Below are positions 6,531-55,675 of a stretch of 64,000 bases of DNA, one piece after another (positions within the stretch are counted from its first letter, which is position 1; the number at the start of each line of letters is the position of its first letter). The notes beneath the pieces were generated by a model. The model searched no databases and was not told the origin of the DNA. It was given only the letters and a program-made list of their open reading frames with translations. The translations under genes and the position numbers were made by a program. This DNA is from a virus. Taxonomy: Duplodnaviria > Caudoviricetes. Where the stretch lies: IMG/VR virus record IMGVR_UViG_3300025316_001101; one strand, written 5' to 3'.

Positions 6531-6533
6531 AAG

Positions 6534-6685
6534 TCAGCGGTGAAGGACTCGAACCCCCGACCTCCGTGTAGTAGGCTCTGATACCCGGTGTAACTCGCTC
6601 CTGCTGCATTTGCAACCACAGCAATCGCTCGTAAGAATTCGTATCTTCGCCATCACGGTGCTCCAACCAACTGAGCTAACCGCCG
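6534..6685 (-). ncRNA. tRNA-like RNA with an 85-nt structured insert in place of the anticodon loop
   Basis: acceptor CGGCGGT/ACCGCTG, D-arm GCTC-AGTTGGTTG-GAGC, stem CCGTG/CACGG enclosing 6569-6653, T-loop TTCGAGT. Confidence 0.8.
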
Positions 6686-6689
6686 TCAG

Positions 6690-6763
6690 CCGGAAGTAAA
6701 GGATTTGAACCTCTATACCTACAACTTGCGTTGTAGTGCTCTAACCAATTGAGCTAACTTCCG
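6690..6763 (-). ncRNA. anticodon-less tRNA mimic (GCAA tetraloop)
   Basis: cloverleaf with anticodon arm CTACAAC-GCAA-GTTGTAG. Confidence 0.85.
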
Positions 6764-6835
6764 TCAACGAGAATGGACTTGAACCACCGACCTCCTACAG
6801 GTTTTGTAGGTGCTCTTTCACTGAGCTACTCGTTG
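6764..6835 (-). ncRNA. tRNA-like RNA with non-canonical anticodon loop
   Basis: CAACGAG/CTCGTTG acceptor; CCTACA-AAACC-TGTAGG arm lacking U33 and purine 37; T-loop TTCAAGT. Confidence 0.8.
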
Positions 6836-6839
6836 TCAG

Positions 6840-6913
6840 CCGAAGGTAAAGGACTCGAACCTCTATCCCTACAACTTGCGTTGTAGTGCTTTAGCCAATT
6901 AAGCTAACCTCCG
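6840..6913 (-). ncRNA. anticodon-less tRNA mimic (GCAA tetraloop), paralog of 6690-6763
   Basis: same CTACAAC-GCAA-GTTGTAG arm; compensatory changes in acceptor and D stems. Confidence 0.85.
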
Positions 6914-7438: not shown

Positions 7439-7777
7439 TTTCTTCTCCTTCATAAAGTTGTTCAGAAAGTTCATCAACACATTTAATCTCTTCATCGGGC
7501 ACCTCCTTCAAAAGAACTTCCTCTGCCTTTTTGTAGATGACCGTTTCGACCACTAATCCGCCACAGACCGCAGCTTCTAACGCACTGAGATCAATAGATC
7601 TTATTTTAGCTTCTTGCACCATATCGACCAAAGAAAATGATCGCACAATTTCCCATTCTGCACTGGGATACCCGCCAAGAGCATTGGCAATGTTCATAGC
7701 GGGGAAACAGTCAGAGCATCGCAAAGCGATGGCTTGTTTTAATTGTGCATCTGTGATAGGACGTTTTAATTCAAAAG

Positions 7778-8345: not shown

Positions 8346-9059
8346 TCAACTCCTGGCCAAATAATTTTTCTGAAGAGCGTCCTTTGACCACAATTTCCCC
8401 TGAACGAATCCATGTCGCACCATCTTAAAACGATGGGTAATCCAGCGATTATCCTTGCTAACCTTGATGTAAATACCTTCCCGTGGTTCCTTAGTCGTAA
8501 ATGGCGACGGTTGGAGAGTGAACTCCTCAATTTGGGGGTAATTCTCTACTGGGCCACTCCAAATCAACGGCACCAAATCAAATCCACAGACAGACAACAT
8601 CTCTCTGGCTTTGTCCGTCCTTACGAACTGCCCTTCGGCATAATCATAAAGATCATAGGCCACAAACCAGCCGGGTAATTTATCGTACTCCAAACCATGC
8701 TGGGCCACCATCCACTCGCCATAAACAGAAGCGTTTGGATAAACCCCTTCCAGAGCCTCAAAAAAATCCTGATGATCGTAAAACCAATTCCAAATCGCAA
8801 CAAATTGTCTCTTGGCTGGAGTGTCCTTTTGAAAACCCTTCTTGAGAATGTGATCCCGATTACGAATTACCGGATGTCCATCAATAAGAGCCATACCACA
8901 ATTCGCACCATCGATCTTCTCCTCAACATAAACATGCGGGAGTTGAAAAATGATGTCAGCGTCGTTTGCCGTTAGGTCGCCTCGCTGAGTGTTTGGCTTC
9001 CAAGGTAAATGCAACGTCCGAGGAAATTCCGGCAATTTGTGAAGGTTCTTAGGTTTCAT
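8346..9059 (-). CDS. ATP-dependent RNA ligase (Rnl1/Rnl2-type nucleotidyltransferase)
   Basis: FPRTLHLP, motif I EEKIDGAN, VYGEW, FVAYDLYD, EGIYIK, RFKMVR. Confidence 0.88.
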   Translation of the reverse strand: MKPKNLHKLPEFPRTLHLPWKPNTQRGDLTANDADIIFQLPHVYVEEKIDGANCGMALIDGHPVIRNRDHILKKGFQKDTPAKRQFVAIWNWFYDHQDFFEALEGVYPNASVYGEWMVAQHGLEYDKLPGWFVAYDLYDYAEGQFVRTDKAREMLSVCGFDLVPLIWSGPVENYPQIEEFTLQPSPFTTKEPREGIYIKVSKDNRWITHRFKMVRHGFVQGKLWSKDALQKNYLARS

Positions 9060-11005: not shown

Positions 11006-11227
11006 TACCGCACCGTGTCATGGTCAATCCACTTTTTATCGATCCACAATTTTCTTTCTTTGTATGGCTGTTGAACAAGCACATGAACTTCATTTTCATT
11101 AAAGTCTAAAATTTCACAATCAATAGATTGTTTGCTACGACGATGAGCACCCGTAAATGCAGTTGCATTAATTTTAACTGTCTTGCCTTTTTCTAAATCC
11201 ATAAATTCTCCAAAAGTAAACACATAG

Positions 11228-11301
11228 CCCGTTTGGTGGGACTCGAACCCACGACATGCGACTTTAGAGATCGCCGCTCTAACCAACTGAGCTACAAACG
11301 G
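11228..11301 (-). tRNA. amber suppressor tRNA (anticodon CTA)
   Basis: canonical cloverleaf CCGTTTG/CAAACGG, GCGAT-CT CTA AA-GTCGC, T-loop TTCGAGT, G73. Confidence 0.9.
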
Positions 11302-11659: not shown

Positions 11660-11778
11660 TGGCCAAGACAGGAATCGAACCTGTATACTCTAAGTTTGTC
11701 GCAATGGCTTACTATGAACAAAGCTCACGCTTTGGACCCCCAACTCCACCTAAAGTTTTACCATTAATATACTCGGCC
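11660..11778 (-). ncRNA. tRNA-like RNA with a ~54-nt insert in the anticodon loop
   Basis: acceptor GGCCGAG/CTTGGCC, T-arm ACAGG-TTCGATT-CCTGT, D-loop AATGGTA, stem TTAGG/CTTAG around the insert. Confidence 0.65.
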
Positions 11779-32390: not shown

Positions 32391-32422
32391 AAAAAGCCCA
32401 CGGAATAAATTCCGTGGGCTTT
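32391..32422. terminator. intrinsic terminator closing the tRNA operon
   Basis: AAAAAGCCCACGGAA-TAAA-TTCCGTGGGCTTT. Confidence 0.8.
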
Positions 32423-32424
32423 AG

Positions 32425-32495
32425 CTAGTCCCGGAGGATTTGAACCTCCACTAAGACAGTCAAAGTGTCTTGTGCTACCGTTACACTAGGGACTA
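32425..32495 (-). tRNA. tRNA-Gln(TTG)
   Basis: TAGTCCC/GGGACTA, AGACA-CT TTG AC-TGTCT, U1-A72, G73. Confidence 0.92.
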
Positions 32496-32499
32496 AAAG

Positions 32500-32584
32500 C
32501 TGTAGGGGTCAGAATCGAACTGACGTAGGCTTCCGCCACACGTGATTAACAGTCACGCCGAAGTACCAACACTTCATCCCTACA
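32500..32584 (-). tRNA. tRNA-Asn(GTT) with a long variable arm
   Basis: CGTGA-CT GTT AA-TCACG; extra arm GTGGC-GGAA-GCCTAC. Confidence 0.85.
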
Positions 32585-32589
32585 ATAAG

Positions 32590-32664
32590 CGCCCTCGGTG
32601 GGATTCGAACCCACGACCTTTAGCTTCGGAGGCTAACGCTCTCATTCCACTGAGCTACAAGGGC
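32590..32664 (-). tRNA. tRNA-Arg(CCG)
   Basis: canonical cloverleaf, TTAGC-CT CCG AA-GCTAA. Confidence 0.93.
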
Positions 32665-32749
32665 CAGCCGGATGCTCTACCATTGAGCCACACTGGAATG
32701 AATAAAAAAGCTCCAGCGGAAGGACTCGAACCTTCAACTGTCCGGTTAA
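32665..32749 (-). tRNA. circularly permuted tRNA-Asn(GTT): 3' half 32749-32711, 13-nt linker, 5' half 32697-32665
   Basis: 5' half TCCAGTGTGGCTCAATGGTAGAGCATCCGGCTG plus 3' half TTAACCGGACAGTTGAAGGTTCGAGTCCTTCCGCTGGAG make one complete cloverleaf with no gap or overlap. Confidence 0.85.
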
Positions 32750-32750
32750 G

Positions 32751-32823
32751 TACGCCCTCGGGGAGTCGAACCCCGAACCTCGACATTAAGAGTGTCTTGC
32801 TCTGCCAATTGAGCTAAGGACGC
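32751..32823 (-). tRNA. tRNA-Lys(CTT)
   Basis: GCGTCCT/AGGGCGT, loop CT CTT AA, A73. Confidence 0.9.
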
Positions 32824-32839
32824 ATATAAATTTTTCAAG

Positions 32840-32912
32840 CTATCCCGCAAGGTAACGCTCCTTGTCCCTCAGATTCAAATTCTGATGTGCAAAACTTCTA
32901 CACCACGGGATA
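32840..32912 (-). tRNA. tRNA-Gln(TTG), non-canonical T- and D-loops
   Basis: TATCCCG/CGGGATA; TCAGA-AT TTG AA-TCTGA; T-loop AGCGTTA. Confidence 0.75.
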
Positions 32913-32921
32913 TCATTCAAG

Positions 32922-32994
32922 CTGGGCAACTACGATTTGCACGTAGCACTCTAAGTTCAGAGCTTAGTGTGATTGCTGAATTCACCATTGCCCA
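32922..32994 (-). tRNA. tRNA-Gln(CTG), non-canonical loops
   Basis: TGGGCAA/TTGCCCA; CTAAG-CT CTG AA-CTTAG; T-loop TGCAAAT; D-loop lacks GG. Confidence 0.8.
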
Positions 32995-33009
32995 ATATAT
33001 TTTTTCAAG

Positions 33010-33136
33010 CTGCCGAGAGTCGATTCGAACGACTTCCTTTTGATTAACAGTCAATTGATGTAGTTCCAACTGCATGCGTTGCCGCCAAGGGTCGCTGAAA
33101 CTTTCATTTTTTATGCTACCATTACACCACTCGGCA
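33010..33136 (-). tRNA. tRNA-Asn(GTT) with a ~56-nt insert between D-arm and anticodon arm
   Basis: TGCCGAG/CTCGGCA; GTGT-AATGGTA-GCAT; TTGA-CT GTT AA-TCAA; AGTCG-TTCGAAT-CGACT. Confidence 0.75.
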
Positions 33137-33766: not shown

Positions 33767-33803
33767 AAAAAAGCCTCCCCCAGGCGTTGCCTGGGGGAGG
33801 CTC
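33767..33803 (-). terminator. intrinsic terminator
   Basis: GAGCCTCCCCCAGG-CAACG-CCTGGGGGAGGC followed by a U-tract on the minus strand. Confidence 0.85.
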
Positions 33804-33922
33804 AATCTTTGTACGGAATAGACCATACCCCAGGCTGCGCCCTGGAGTTGATTTCCAGAGCGGTTAAGGCTTCTGATTATTCCGTTGCTTACGAGTCATT
33901 GTTTTAATCCTCACTGTATCTA

Positions 33923-33954
33923 TATTATACGCTGAAATTTTCGTTTGTCAAGTC
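33923..33954 (-). promoter_or_regulatory. sigma70-type promoter TTGACA-N16-TATAAT (32-bp exact copy at 55695-55726)
   Basis: perfect -35 and -10 hexamers. Confidence 0.85.
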
Positions 33955-54791: not shown

Positions 54792-54872
54792 TAGGACCGA
54801 AGGGAATCGAACCCTTATTGCCCTTTCGAGCCCAGATTAAAAGTCTGGAGCATTCCAGTCTGCCACGATCCC
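54792..54872 (-). tRNA. tRNA-Lys(TTT) with a long variable arm
   Basis: CCAGA-CT TTT AA-TCTGG; extra arm GCTC-GAAA-GGGC. Confidence 0.85.
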
Positions 54873-55582: not shown

Positions 55583-55675
55583 TGGTGGGGGCTGGGATCG
55601 AACCAGCGATCTTCAGGTTATTCTAGGGCTTGTCTGAGCCAAGAGCCTGACGAGATGCCTCTTCTCCACCCCACG
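55583..55675 (-). tRNA. initiator-type tRNA-fMet(CAT) with a 21-nt insert at anticodon position 34/35 (55622-55642)
   Basis: CGTGGGG start with C1:C72 mismatch; TCAGG-CTC[TTGGCTCAGACAAGCCCTAGA]ATAA-CCTGA. Confidence 0.8.

What the first reader, a model, noticed from the sequence alone, without database searches (positions are those of the whole stretch)
32665..32749. Circularly permuted tRNA-Asn(GUU), split exactly at anticodon 34/35 and framed by two neighbouring tRNAs
Seen: on the minus strand the order is tRNA-Lys(CTT), 1 nt (C), the 3' half of tRNA-Asn (TTAACCGGA...CGCTGGAG, positions 35-73, 39 nt), a 13-nt linker CTTTTTTATTCAT, the 5' half (TCCAGTG...TCCGGCTG, positions 1-34), then G1 of tRNA-Arg(CCG) with no spacer. 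The halves rebuild a full cloverleaf with no missing or duplicated base: acceptor TCCAGTG/CGCTGGA, anticodon stem TCCGG/CCGGA, and Asn-type U1-A72 and G73. Established: permuted tRNA genes are known from Cyanidioschyzon, some green algae and Thermofilum, where they mature through a circular intermediate. Colicin E5 cuts Q-family tRNAs (Asn, Asp, His, Tyr) between 34 and 35. RNase P leaves a 3'-OH on leaders and RNase Z leaves a 5'-P on trailers. Inference: processing Arg and Lys would release this piece with 5'-P and 3'-OH ends held together by the anticodon stem, a ready substrate for the phage ATP-dependent RNA ligase (8346-9059). RNase P/Z would then open the linker. I know of no phage example. 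Caveat: the extra C after Lys A73 must be trimmed, or the loop would be 8 nt.
Basis: partly seen in the sequence, partly recalled or inferred. Interest (0 to 1): 0.93.

Follow-up and report, generated by a model that had tools for sequence, protein, structure and literature searches.

The report
Circularly permuted tRNA-Asn gene in phage
A large freshwater phage encodes an asparagine tRNA whose back half comes before its front half, each half butted against a neighbouring tRNA, so ordinary tRNA-trimming enzymes plus the phage's own RNA ligase could assemble it; this would be the first such gene outside algae and archaea, but no RNA evidence exists yet.

Summary
On the minus strand the order is tRNA-Lys(CUU), one C, Asn nucleotides 35-73, a 13-nt linker, Asn nucleotides 1-34, then tRNA-Arg(CCG) with no spacer. 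Rejoined, the halves give a clean 72-nt tRNA-Asn(GUU). Contigs from three other studies show the same arrangement with no differences, so it is not a misassembly.

New context:
- The "extra C" fits this phage's standard tRNA 3' end. 42 of 48 tRNAs end N73-C74, and 47 of 48 are followed by U.
- Three other large phages carry Asn(GUU) genes broken at the same G34|U35 bond, in normal order, with a tRNA-like insert. One of them also splits Arg(UCU) there.
- This genome also has an initiator tRNA and an Arg(UCU) with hairpin inserts at 34|35.
- All three split-Asn genomes that could be searched encode RNA ligases.
- A leader peptide upstream of the operon uses the codons that the operon's tRNAs read, including two Asn codons.

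The main rival is a YrlA/Y-RNA-like tRNA mimic, since the phage encodes Ro60. The element fails the YrlA score, motif and location tests.

Ligation is inferred, not shown. This scan had already noted tRNA-shaped inserts in phage tRNAs on other DNA, and judged one earlier "permuted tRNA" to be a YrlA-like mimic. This permuted, tRNA-framed form appears new.

The parts
32751..32823 (-). tRNA-Lys(CUU); its 3' processing would define the 5' end of the Asn 3' half
   Evidence: Rfam RF00005 60.9 bits; ARAGORN
32750..32750 (-).
   Evidence: 42 of 48 tRNAs of this genome end N73-C and 47 of 48 are followed by T
32711..32749 (-). tRNA-Asn 3' half, positions 35-73 (UUAA, anticodon-stem 3' strand, variable loop, T arm, acceptor 3' strand, G73)
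32698..32710 (-). Linker CTTTTTTATTCAT: C74 plus a U/A-rich spacer like the other inter-tRNA spacers; to be opened by 3'-end endonuclease and RNase P
32665..32697 (-). tRNA-Asn 5' half, positions 1-34 (acceptor 5' strand, D arm, anticodon-stem 5' strand, C32 U33 G34)
   Evidence: cellular tRNA-Asn contigs at 85% identity or more run on into TTAACCGG (table 7)
32590..32664 (-). tRNA-Arg(CCG); RNase P cleavage at its G1 would leave G34 with a 3'-OH
   Evidence: Rfam 71.1 bits, starts at 32664
8346..9059 (-). ATP-dependent RNA ligase (237 aa, nucleotidyltransferase domain only), candidate sealing enzyme
   Evidence: PF09414 E 3.4e-25; PHROG RNA ligase families; motifs KIDG, YGEW, EGIYIK
33864..33951 (-). 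Operon promoter (TTGACA, 16 nt, TATAAT) and leader ORF MTRKQRNNQKP (33899-33864); codons 4-10 match the operon's anticodons
33774..33800 (-). Terminator after the leader ORF (candidate attenuator)
32393..32422 (-). Intrinsic terminator ending the tRNA operon

Best explanation
This is a functional, circularly permuted (in effect split) tRNA-Asn(GUU) gene inside a polycistronic phage tRNA operon. All four ends of the two halves coincide with ordinary tRNA end-processing sites. RNase P cutting at G1 of tRNA-Arg leaves G34 with a 3'-OH. The 3'-end endonuclease that trims tRNA-Lys after C74 leaves U35 with a 5'-phosphate. The same two activities cut the linker after G73-C74 and before U1. The halves stay together through the 7-bp acceptor stem, the 5-bp anticodon stem and the D/T elbow. 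The phage's ATP-dependent RNA ligase seals the G34/U35 nick, which needs no end-healing. CCA completion then gives a normal tRNA-Asn. Because every end is made by standard tRNA processing, the genomic order of the halves does not matter, and a circular intermediate is possible but not required. Shown: the anatomy, its presence in independent samples, intact pairing, the C74-U rule, the recurrence of the 34|35 break, and the presence of a ligase. Inferred: the identity and exact position of the cuts, and the ligation.
For: The rejoined halves form a clean tRNA-Asn, flush with two high-scoring tRNAs. The piece folds on its own as a permuted cloverleaf. Three other studies hold the identical arrangement. 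Four phage Asn(GUU) genes broken at G34|U35 (window, L004/L028, L016, L040) keep all 12 inter-half base pairs (48/48 cells), and 11 of 12 positions show two or more pair types. In five genes the 3' exon starts immediately after that phage's standard tRNA 3' end: C74 in G000 and G002, CCA in G001 and L004. In three of them the 5' exon ends exactly at the insert's or neighbour's first base. G73-C74-U also follows the Asn 3' half itself. G000 has two more tRNAs interrupted at 34|35, so it needs some cut-and-reseal route anyway. RNA ligase genes are present in G000, G001 and G002, with intact motifs in G000. No RtcB was found, which fits 3'-OH/5'-P chemistry. The operon's leader ORF has AAT AAT among seven consecutive codons that match the operon's anticodons. 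G001 has 29 ordinary tRNAs and no uninterrupted Asn. Precedent: a permuted tRNA-like RNA with a closed 7-bp acceptor stem (M. smegmatis YrlA) is cut by RNase P and receives CCA (10.1101/312249). The end chemistry of RNase P and RNase Z/E, and nick sealing by Rnl-type ligases, are established knowledge.
Against: There is no RNA evidence: no junction reads and no usable RNA runs. No diverged relative with the same permuted order was found, so the permuted form itself shows no evolutionary conservation. The operon holds two other Asn(GUU) genes (86 nt with a long variable arm; 127 nt with a 55-nt insert), so this copy may be dispensable. In G002, 28-29 nt separate nucleotide 34 from the insert's first base, so RNase P alone cannot explain that end. 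The 21-22-nt hairpin inserts at 34|35 are not tRNA-shaped, which hints at another nuclease. If the 3' cut falls after N73 and not after C74, the loop would have 8 nt. The ligases of the four phages are only distantly related, and RNA ligases are common in jumbo phages (PMC7824862), so co-occurrence is weak evidence. The window's ligase is 237 aa, barely longer than the PF09414 nucleotidyltransferase domain (matched at residues 42-213), so it appears to have no separate nick-sensing domain.
Confidence: 0.55

Rival explanations
1. It is a tRNA-mimic non-coding RNA of the YrlA/Y-RNA kind, or another decoy. The permuted tRNA-like piece is released from between Lys and Arg and acts unligated, for example with the phage's Ro60 or another tRNA-binding protein.
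For: Rfam YrlA (RF02553) aligns end to end over 32772-32643 at 32.8 bits, E 2.8e-5. YrlA RNAs are described as resembling circularly permuted tRNAs with a closed acceptor stem (10.1101/312249). G000 encodes a real Ro60 (vWA_Ro60 64 bits plus TROVE). The first Asn gene of the same operon carries a 55-nt module shared with the tRNA-like gene beside Ro60. An earlier permuted 'tRNA' in this scan was judged YrlA-like (e1-4597622).
Against: The score is far below the family's gathering score of 69. It comes mostly from the T and D arms plus a chance-like pairing of Lys CGAGGGC with Arg GCCCUUG, both of which belong to those tRNAs' own acceptor stems. The Ro-binding motif pair GAAUGC...UUGUC is absent here but occurs six times directly after the Ro60 gene, 33 kb away. 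This phage's Ro60-linked tRNA-like RNAs use an inserted arm in normal order, which this element lacks. A mimic has no need for exact CUG and UUAA termini, G73-C74-U or a 7-bp acceptor stem. The nested relatives broken at the same bond are in normal tRNA order.
Confidence: 0.15
2. It is a non-functional relic. Two neighbouring nested Asn genes (5' half-tRNA-3' half) lost their outer halves, or a rearrangement scrambled one gene. The leftover halves are young and have not yet decayed, and Asn decoding is supplied by the other Asn(GUU) genes or by the host.
For: The order tRNA, 3' half, spacer, 5' half, tRNA is exactly the middle of two tandem nested genes, and nested genes exist in other phages. 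No diverged relative keeps the permuted order. Other Asn(GUU) genes are present in the operon.
Against: There is not one mismatch in 21 stem pairs, the loop halves are exact and the boundaries are flush. No remnant of an outer 5' half lies upstream of Lys, and none of a 3' half lies downstream of Arg. Lys and Arg are unrelated apart from a shared 9-mer, so this is not a recent simple duplication. The arrangement is identical in samples from 2016 to 2020 in four studies. If halves of nested genes are joined after full processing, this leftover would still work.
Confidence: 0.15
3. It is a functional split tRNA, but the 34|35 ends are made by a dedicated (possibly phage-encoded) endonuclease that recognises the anticodon-loop junction. 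The same enzyme would remove the 21-22-nt hairpin inserts and the G002 inserts with leaders. The flush tRNAs would be incidental or only helpers.
For: Non-tRNA-shaped hairpin inserts sit at exactly 34|35 in the initiator tRNA and Arg(UCU) of the same genome. Leaders of 28-29 nt precede the tRNA-like part in both G002 inserts.
Against: No candidate endonuclease was identified. The 3' exon starts exactly after a tRNA-type 3' end in all five tRNA-framed genes, and that end follows each phage's own C74 or CCA habit, which a loop-specific nuclease would not explain. No RtcB was found to join the cyclic-phosphate/5'-OH ends typical of such nucleases, although the genome records are incomplete.
Confidence: 0.1

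Closest known systems
Circularly permuted tRNA genes of Cyanidioschyzon merolae, some green algae and Thermofilum pendens (Soma 2007; Maruyama 2010; Chan 2011, as cited in 10.1101/312249)
   Same: The 3' half is encoded upstream of the 5' half on one strand. The halves rebuild a complete cloverleaf. A short linker closes the acceptor stem and must be opened by RNase P and a 3' endonuclease.
   Different: Those precursors join their termini through a bulge-helix-bulge motif cut by the splicing endonuclease, and they pass through a circular intermediate. Here the host domain is bacterial/phage, there is no room for such a motif, the termini are defined by abutting tRNAs, the break is at 34/35, and the expected ligase is an ATP-dependent 3'-OH/5'-P enzyme.
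tRNA-shaped inserts in phage tRNA anticodon loops
   Same: The interruption is inside the anticodon. The interrupting element is a tRNA or tRNA-like RNA running from its first base to its 3' end. The setting is a large phage with many tRNAs and an RNA ligase. L004, L016 and L040 found here belong to this kind and share the 34|35 break.
   Different: Those genes are in normal order with one insert. Here there is no insert: two separate, apparently functional tRNAs (Lys, Arg) supply the two cut sites, and the halves are permuted. No mechanism has been demonstrated for either form.
YrlA (Rfam RF02553), tRNA-like Y RNAs bound by Ro60/Rsr
   Same: Same topology: T arm 5' of the D arm, closed acceptor-like stem, ends in the anticodon-stem position. 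The phage encodes Ro60. M. smegmatis YrlA is cut by RNase P and receives CCA.
   Different: The element scores below the family threshold, has no Ro-binding helix or motif, is not next to the Ro60 gene, keeps exact anticodon-loop halves and Asn identity elements, and is flanked flush by real tRNAs.
Phage T4 tRNA repair (PrrC nick in the tRNA-Lys anticodon loop, healed by Pnkp and sealed by Rnl1); Rnl2-family nick-sealing ligases
   Same: A phage RNA ligase reseals a broken tRNA anticodon loop that is held together by the rest of the tRNA.
   Different: In T4 the break is damage with cyclic-phosphate/5'-OH ends that need healing. Here the break is encoded in the gene, and the predicted ends are directly ligatable.
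Split tRNA genes of Nanoarchaeum equitans
   Same: Halves broken in the anticodon loop are made as separate pieces and joined after pairing, so gene order is irrelevant.
   Different: The archaeal halves carry complementary leader/trailer sequences that form a splicing motif, and they use the archaeal endonuclease with an RtcB-type ligase. Here both halves lie in one operon and are delimited by tRNAs.

Membership tests
Permuted tRNA genes (algal/archaeal type) | 3' half upstream of 5' half on the same strand, joined by a short linker at the acceptor ends | tested here: met
Permuted tRNA genes (algal/archaeal type) | Halves rebuild a complete cloverleaf with no missing or duplicated base | tested here: met
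   ARAGORN calls the rejoined sequence a 72-nt tRNA-Asn(gtt)
Permuted tRNA genes (algal/archaeal type) | Bulge-helix-bulge motif formed by leader and trailer at the joined termini | tested here: not met
   The termini abut tRNA-Lys (+C74) and G1 of tRNA-Arg, so there is no leader or trailer to form the motif
Permuted tRNA genes (algal/archaeal type) | Circular RNA intermediate and mature contiguous tRNA | not testable with these tools
YrlA (RF02553) | Reaches Rfam's gathering score | tested here: not met
   32.8 bits against 69
YrlA (RF02553) | Long terminal helix with the conserved Ro60-binding motif (GAAUGC / UUGUC in the Rfam consensus) | tested here: not met
   The motifs are absent from 32830-32580, and six motif pairs lie next to the Ro60 gene instead
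YrlA (RF02553) | Encoded next to the Ro60 (rsr) gene | tested here: not met
   The Ro60 ORF is at G000 about 127.1-128.8 kb and the element at 162.3 kb
YrlA (RF02553) | tRNA-like module with the T arm 5' of the D arm and a closed acceptor-like stem | tested here: met
Phage tRNA genes with tRNA-shaped inserts | Break inside the anticodon loop, bounded by a tRNA-like 5' start and 3' end | tested here: met
   34|35, flush with Arg G1 and Lys C74
Phage tRNA genes with tRNA-shaped inserts | Normal exon order with a single insert between the exons | tested here: not met
   The exons are permuted and two different full tRNAs flank them
tRNA (RF00005) | Contiguous cloverleaf gene detectable by standard tools | tested here: not met
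   Neither ARAGORN nor Rfam calls it in place; it is called only after rejoining
tRNA-Asn identity | GUU anticodon and G73 (U1-A72 is common in bacterial Asn tRNAs; from my own knowledge) | tested here: met
Rnl2-like RNA ligase (PF09414) | Pfam match over the cut-off, with the motif I lysine and motifs III and IV | tested here: met
   89.6 bits against 27; KIDG, YGEW, EGIYIK
Rnl2-like RNA ligase (PF09414) | Seals a 3'-OH/5'-P nick in a tRNA anticodon loop | not testable with these tools
   Needs a biochemical assay

The most novel reading that the evidence does not exclude
Large phages run a tRNA-splicing pathway that needs no intron-specific endonuclease. tRNA exons are delimited purely by neighbouring tRNA or tRNA-like structures, cut by RNase P and the tRNA 3' endonuclease, and joined by a phage ATP-dependent RNA ligase acting on halves that pair after release. 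Exon order in the genome is then free, and this gene is the first permuted tRNA of the bacterial/phage world and the proof of that freedom.
Probability: 0.45. Interest if true: 0.9.

Novelty: new variant of a known kind. Interest (0 to 1): 0.8.

Why it matters
Permuted tRNA genes are known only from a few algae and one archaeon, where they depend on the archaeal/eukaryal splicing endonuclease. A permuted tRNA in a bacteriophage, with every end placed at an ordinary tRNA-processing site, would show that bacteria-infecting viruses can assemble tRNAs from pieces using RNase P, a 3' endonuclease and an RNA ligase. That would give phage RNA ligases a biosynthetic role beside repair. It would also explain how the tRNA-shaped 'introns' seen in Lak and other huge phages are removed, and it would mean that standard tRNA finders undercount phage tRNA sets. 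The gene is a compact substrate (234 nt of Lys-Asn-Arg plus one 237-aa ligase) for testing the idea directly.

Tried and rejected
- An exact-match scan of IMG/VR with the 3' half found nothing.
- A search by the neighbouring 742-aa protein found no related viral locus.
- A permuted-hairpin pattern gave 14 loci. All were ordinary tandem tRNAs with 4 or fewer acceptor pairs.
- The junction pattern in metagenome and genome collections gave only a duplicate of L004 (L028) and two chance hits in coding or non-tRNA sequence. Of the 21 IMG/VR hits to the looser pattern, 19 were chance hits in coding sequence; the other two were L004 and L016.
- RNA evidence: no RNA holder was listed for the 901-nt stretch.
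- The MFE fold of the whole 234-nt Lys-Asn-Arg precursor did not give three cloverleaves (ensemble frequency 0.0013; it mispairs Lys with Arg through their shared 9-mer). I treat this as uninformative.
- PDB sequence searches with the two ligases gave no meaningful match. NCBIfam gave none.
- No RtcB, T4 Rnl1-type ligase or CCA-adding enzyme was found in G000. The record is about 50% complete, and the Rnl1 control rang nowhere.
- L004's full record is not held, so its ligase content is unknown.
- ARAGORN's intron mode produced several chimeras of adjacent paralogous tRNAs (for example G000 188112-188336), which I rejected as nested genes.
- The colicin E5/Q-family link was considered and dropped, because Arg(UCU) and the initiator tRNA share the 34|35 site.
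- A microhomology-deletion origin through the shared CCGAGGGCG 9-mer was considered, but it does not reproduce the Lys 3' end.

Full report
**What is there.**
On the minus strand the sequence reads as follows:
- tRNA-Lys(CUU), 32823-32751
- a single C, 32750
- TTAACCGGA...CGCTGGAG, 32749-32711 (39 nt, tRNA positions 35-73)
- the linker CTTTTTTATTCAT, 32710-32698
- TCCAGTG...TCCGGCTG, 32697-32665 (33 nt, positions 1-34 without position 17)
- tRNA-Arg(CCG), starting at 32664

Rfam puts Lys at 32751-32823 (60.9 bits) and Arg at 32590-32664 (71.1 bits), so both boundaries are flush. ARAGORN reads the rejoined halves as a 72-nt tRNA-Asn(gtt). It has a 7/7 acceptor stem, a 5/5 anticodon stem, the loop CTGTTAA, U1-A72 and G73. 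The 85-nt piece on its own has the permuted cloverleaf as its minimum-energy fold.

A structural scan found this as the only site in the 259-kb genome, against 1 hit in 10 shuffled genomes. A stricter scan found none in 3 shuffles.

**Not an assembly artefact.**
The window comes from a 259-kb IMG/VR virus record of about 50% completeness, and the sequence occurs in freshwater metagenomes. Contigs from three other studies cover both junctions with no differences: X2 record 10 (32443-33127), X3 record 20 (32629-32837) and X5 record 26 (32563-32792).

The same runs hold cellular tRNA-Asn genes whose 5' halves match this one at 85% or more and then run on into TTAACCGG. The halves are therefore true Asn tRNA sequence (tables 5c and 7).

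**The 'extra C'.**
In G000, 42 of 48 ARAGORN tRNAs end N73-C, and 47 of 48 are then followed by T. With C at 0.18 and T at 0.29 of bases, chance predicts about 5% for C-T.
- The C at 32750 is therefore best read as C74 of Lys.
- U35 sits where the conserved trailer U always sits.
- The Asn 3' half itself is followed by G73-C-TTTTTT, so the linker looks like any other spacer in the array.
- I infer that the 3' endonuclease cuts after C74, which would leave pU35 and a 7-nt loop. This is not shown. A cut after A73 would give an 8-nt loop.

**Relatives.**
I found no second permuted copy. Junction patterns did find Asn(GUU) genes in three other large viral contigs. All are broken at the same G34|U35 bond, but in normal order with a tRNA-like insert between the halves.

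| Locus | Contig | Insert |
|---|---|---|
| L004 (= L028) | 143 kb | 77 nt, ends in CCA |
| L016 = G001 | 147 kb | 75 nt, ends in CCA, poor anticodon arm |
| L040 = G002 | 217 kb | 29-nt leader plus 77-nt tRNA-like element, ends N73-C |

- G002 also splits Arg(UCU) at 34|35. Its insert is homologous to the Asn insert (64/107 identical).
- Across the four Asn genes, all 12 pairs formed between the two halves are intact (48/48 cells). Eleven of the 12 positions show two or more pair types.
- In all five genes the 3' exon begins right after that phage's usual tRNA 3' end: C74 in G000 and G002, CCA in G001 and L004.
- In three of the five genes the 5' exon ends at the first base of the next tRNA. 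In the two G002 genes 28-29 nt intervene, which a pure RNase P model does not explain.

**Context in this genome.**
The element lies in an operon bounded by terminators at 33800-33774 and 32422-32393. The operon encodes Lys(CUU) twice, Gln(UUG) twice, Gln(CUG), Arg(CCG) and three odd Asn(GUU) genes:
- the permuted one
- an 86-nt gene with a long variable arm (32584-32499)
- a 127-nt gene with a 55-nt insert at 26/27 (33136-33010)

Upstream are a TTGACA-16-TATAAT promoter and the leader ORF MTRKQRNNQKP. Its codons 4-10 (AAG CAA CGG AAT AAT CAG AAG) are read by exactly the operon's anticodons. By my rough arithmetic the chance of that is about (6/61)^7. This suggests the operon is tuned to supply decoding tRNAs, Asn included, though it does not say which Asn gene supplies them.

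Elsewhere in G000, an initiator tRNA (55675-55583) and an Arg(UCU) (G000 226755-226850) carry 21-22-nt hairpin inserts at exactly 34|35. The phage therefore needs some way to cut and reseal at this bond.

**The ligase.**
The ORF at 8346-9059 (minus strand) matches PF09414 at 89.6 bits, E 3.4e-25. It also matches PHROG RNA-ligase families and has motifs KIDG, YGEW and EGIYIK.
- G001 has a 473-aa PHROG RNA ligase (E 1.8e-65), and G002 a 309-aa one.
- These ligases are only distantly related to each other.
- RNA ligases are common in jumbo phages (PMC7824862), so this co-occurrence is weak support.
- No RtcB was found.

**Mechanism.**
RNase P leaves a 3'-OH upstream and a 5'-P downstream, and RNase Z and RNase E do the same; this is established enzymology. 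Processing of Arg and Lys would therefore leave G34-OH and pU35, a nick that an ATP-dependent ligase can seal without end-healing.

The same activities would open the linker. Wang et al. report that a permuted tRNA-like RNA with a closed 7-bp acceptor stem (M. smegmatis YrlA) is cut by RNase P and receives CCA (10.1101/312249).

Since all four ends are standard processing sites, the halves can pair after release, and their order in the genome is irrelevant. A plausible origin is two tandem nested genes that lost their outer halves. I found no remnant of those halves.

**Main rival: a YrlA-like mimic.**
In its favour:
- The YrlA model aligns over the element at 32.8 bits, below its gathering score of 69.
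- The phage encodes a true Ro60.
- The 127-nt Asn gene shares a module with the tRNA-like gene beside Ro60.

Against it:
- The alignment's 'Ro stem' borrows the acceptor strands of Lys and Arg.
- The GAAUGC/UUGUC motif pair is absent here but present six times just after the Ro60 gene.
- The element keeps exact anticodon-loop termini and Asn identity elements.

I put this rival at 0.15, a young relic at 0.15, and a dedicated 34|35 endonuclease at 0.10.

**Literature.**
Full-text searches found no permuted or tRNA-framed split tRNA in a phage or bacterium. The closest published item is the Lak megaphage report of tRNA introns, one of which 'may encode a tRNA' (PMC6784885). Earlier notes of this scan had already seen tRNA-shaped inserts in phage tRNAs on other DNA. 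The permuted, tRNA-framed form is new to both.

**Verdict.**

Noticed in passing
window 33010-33136 (-): Third Asn(GUU) gene, 127 nt. Removing a 55-nt hairpin insert between positions 26 and 27 gives a 72-nt tRNA-Asn. The insert shares GTTTCAGCG and the 15-mer AGTTGGAACTACATC with a tRNA-like gene next to the Ro60 gene (G000 128960-129088).
   Followed up: partly
window 32499-32584 (-); also 54791-54872 and 52613-52696: tRNAs with long variable arms and 6-bp anticodon stems: Asn(GUU) 86 nt (U1-A72, G73; weak tRNA-Sec hit at 31.9 bits), Lys(UUU) 82 nt and Trp(CCA) 84 nt. G002 also has an 85-nt long-arm Asn(GUU) right beside its split Asn.
   Followed up: partly
window 55583-55675 (-); G000 226755-226850: An initiator-like tRNA(CAU) and an Arg(UCU) each carry a 21-22-nt hairpin insert exactly at 34|35. 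The spliced forms are called Met(cat) and Arg(tct) by ARAGORN.
   Followed up: yes
window 33864-33951 (-), terminator 33774-33800: Promoter, 11-codon leader ORF MTRKQRNNQKP and terminator upstream of the tRNA operon. Seven consecutive codons match the operon's anticodons, so this is a candidate attenuator that senses tRNA supply.
   Followed up: partly
whole G000 (48 tRNAs): Nearly all tRNA genes end N73-C74 followed by U, with none encoding CCA. G002 uses N73-C74-A, and G001 and L004 encode full CCA.
   Followed up: yes
G000 127.1-130.1 kb (just outside the window; L038): Ro60 orthologue (569 aa; vWA_Ro60 plus TROVE), followed by a tRNA-like gene with a 61-nt insert, a weak YrlB hit, and an array of six GAAUGC...UUGUC motif pairs. 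These are likely the phage's Y RNAs.
   Followed up: partly
window 6533-6913 (-): Four back-to-back tRNA-like genes. Two near-identical copies have a 6-nt loop where the anticodon loop should be, one is Val(AAC), and one is Ala(GGC)-like with a 78-nt insert.
   Followed up: partly
window 11660-11778 (-) and 11227-11301 (-): A 119-nt Rfam tRNA hit with an internal insert that ARAGORN does not call, and an amber-suppressor tRNA(CUA). A second tRNA(CUA) lies at G000 210663-210736.
   Followed up: no
window 32751-32823 and 32590-32664: tRNA-Lys and tRNA-Arg share the 9-mer CCGAGGGCG at their 3' ends, offset by 2 nt. The Arg 5' strand could therefore pair with the Lys 3' end. This underlies the YrlA hit and the odd whole-precursor fold.
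   Followed up: partly
G001 (L016 genome) 96183-96506; 98382-98554; 95971-96038: A tRNA-Leu(UAA)-like gene with a 237-nt insert in its anticodon, at or next to the classic group I intron site; intron type not tested. A Tyr-like gene with a roughly 93-nt insert. An unresolved second permuted-like junction between two interrupted paralogous tRNA-like genes.
   Followed up: partly
L039 and L041 (L041 about 7470-7640): A run of abutting T-arm/acceptor modules, each ending N73-C or similar and one starting TTAA. This is possibly a multiply nested or fragmentary tRNA structure. Both genomes have PF09414 hits.
   Followed up: no
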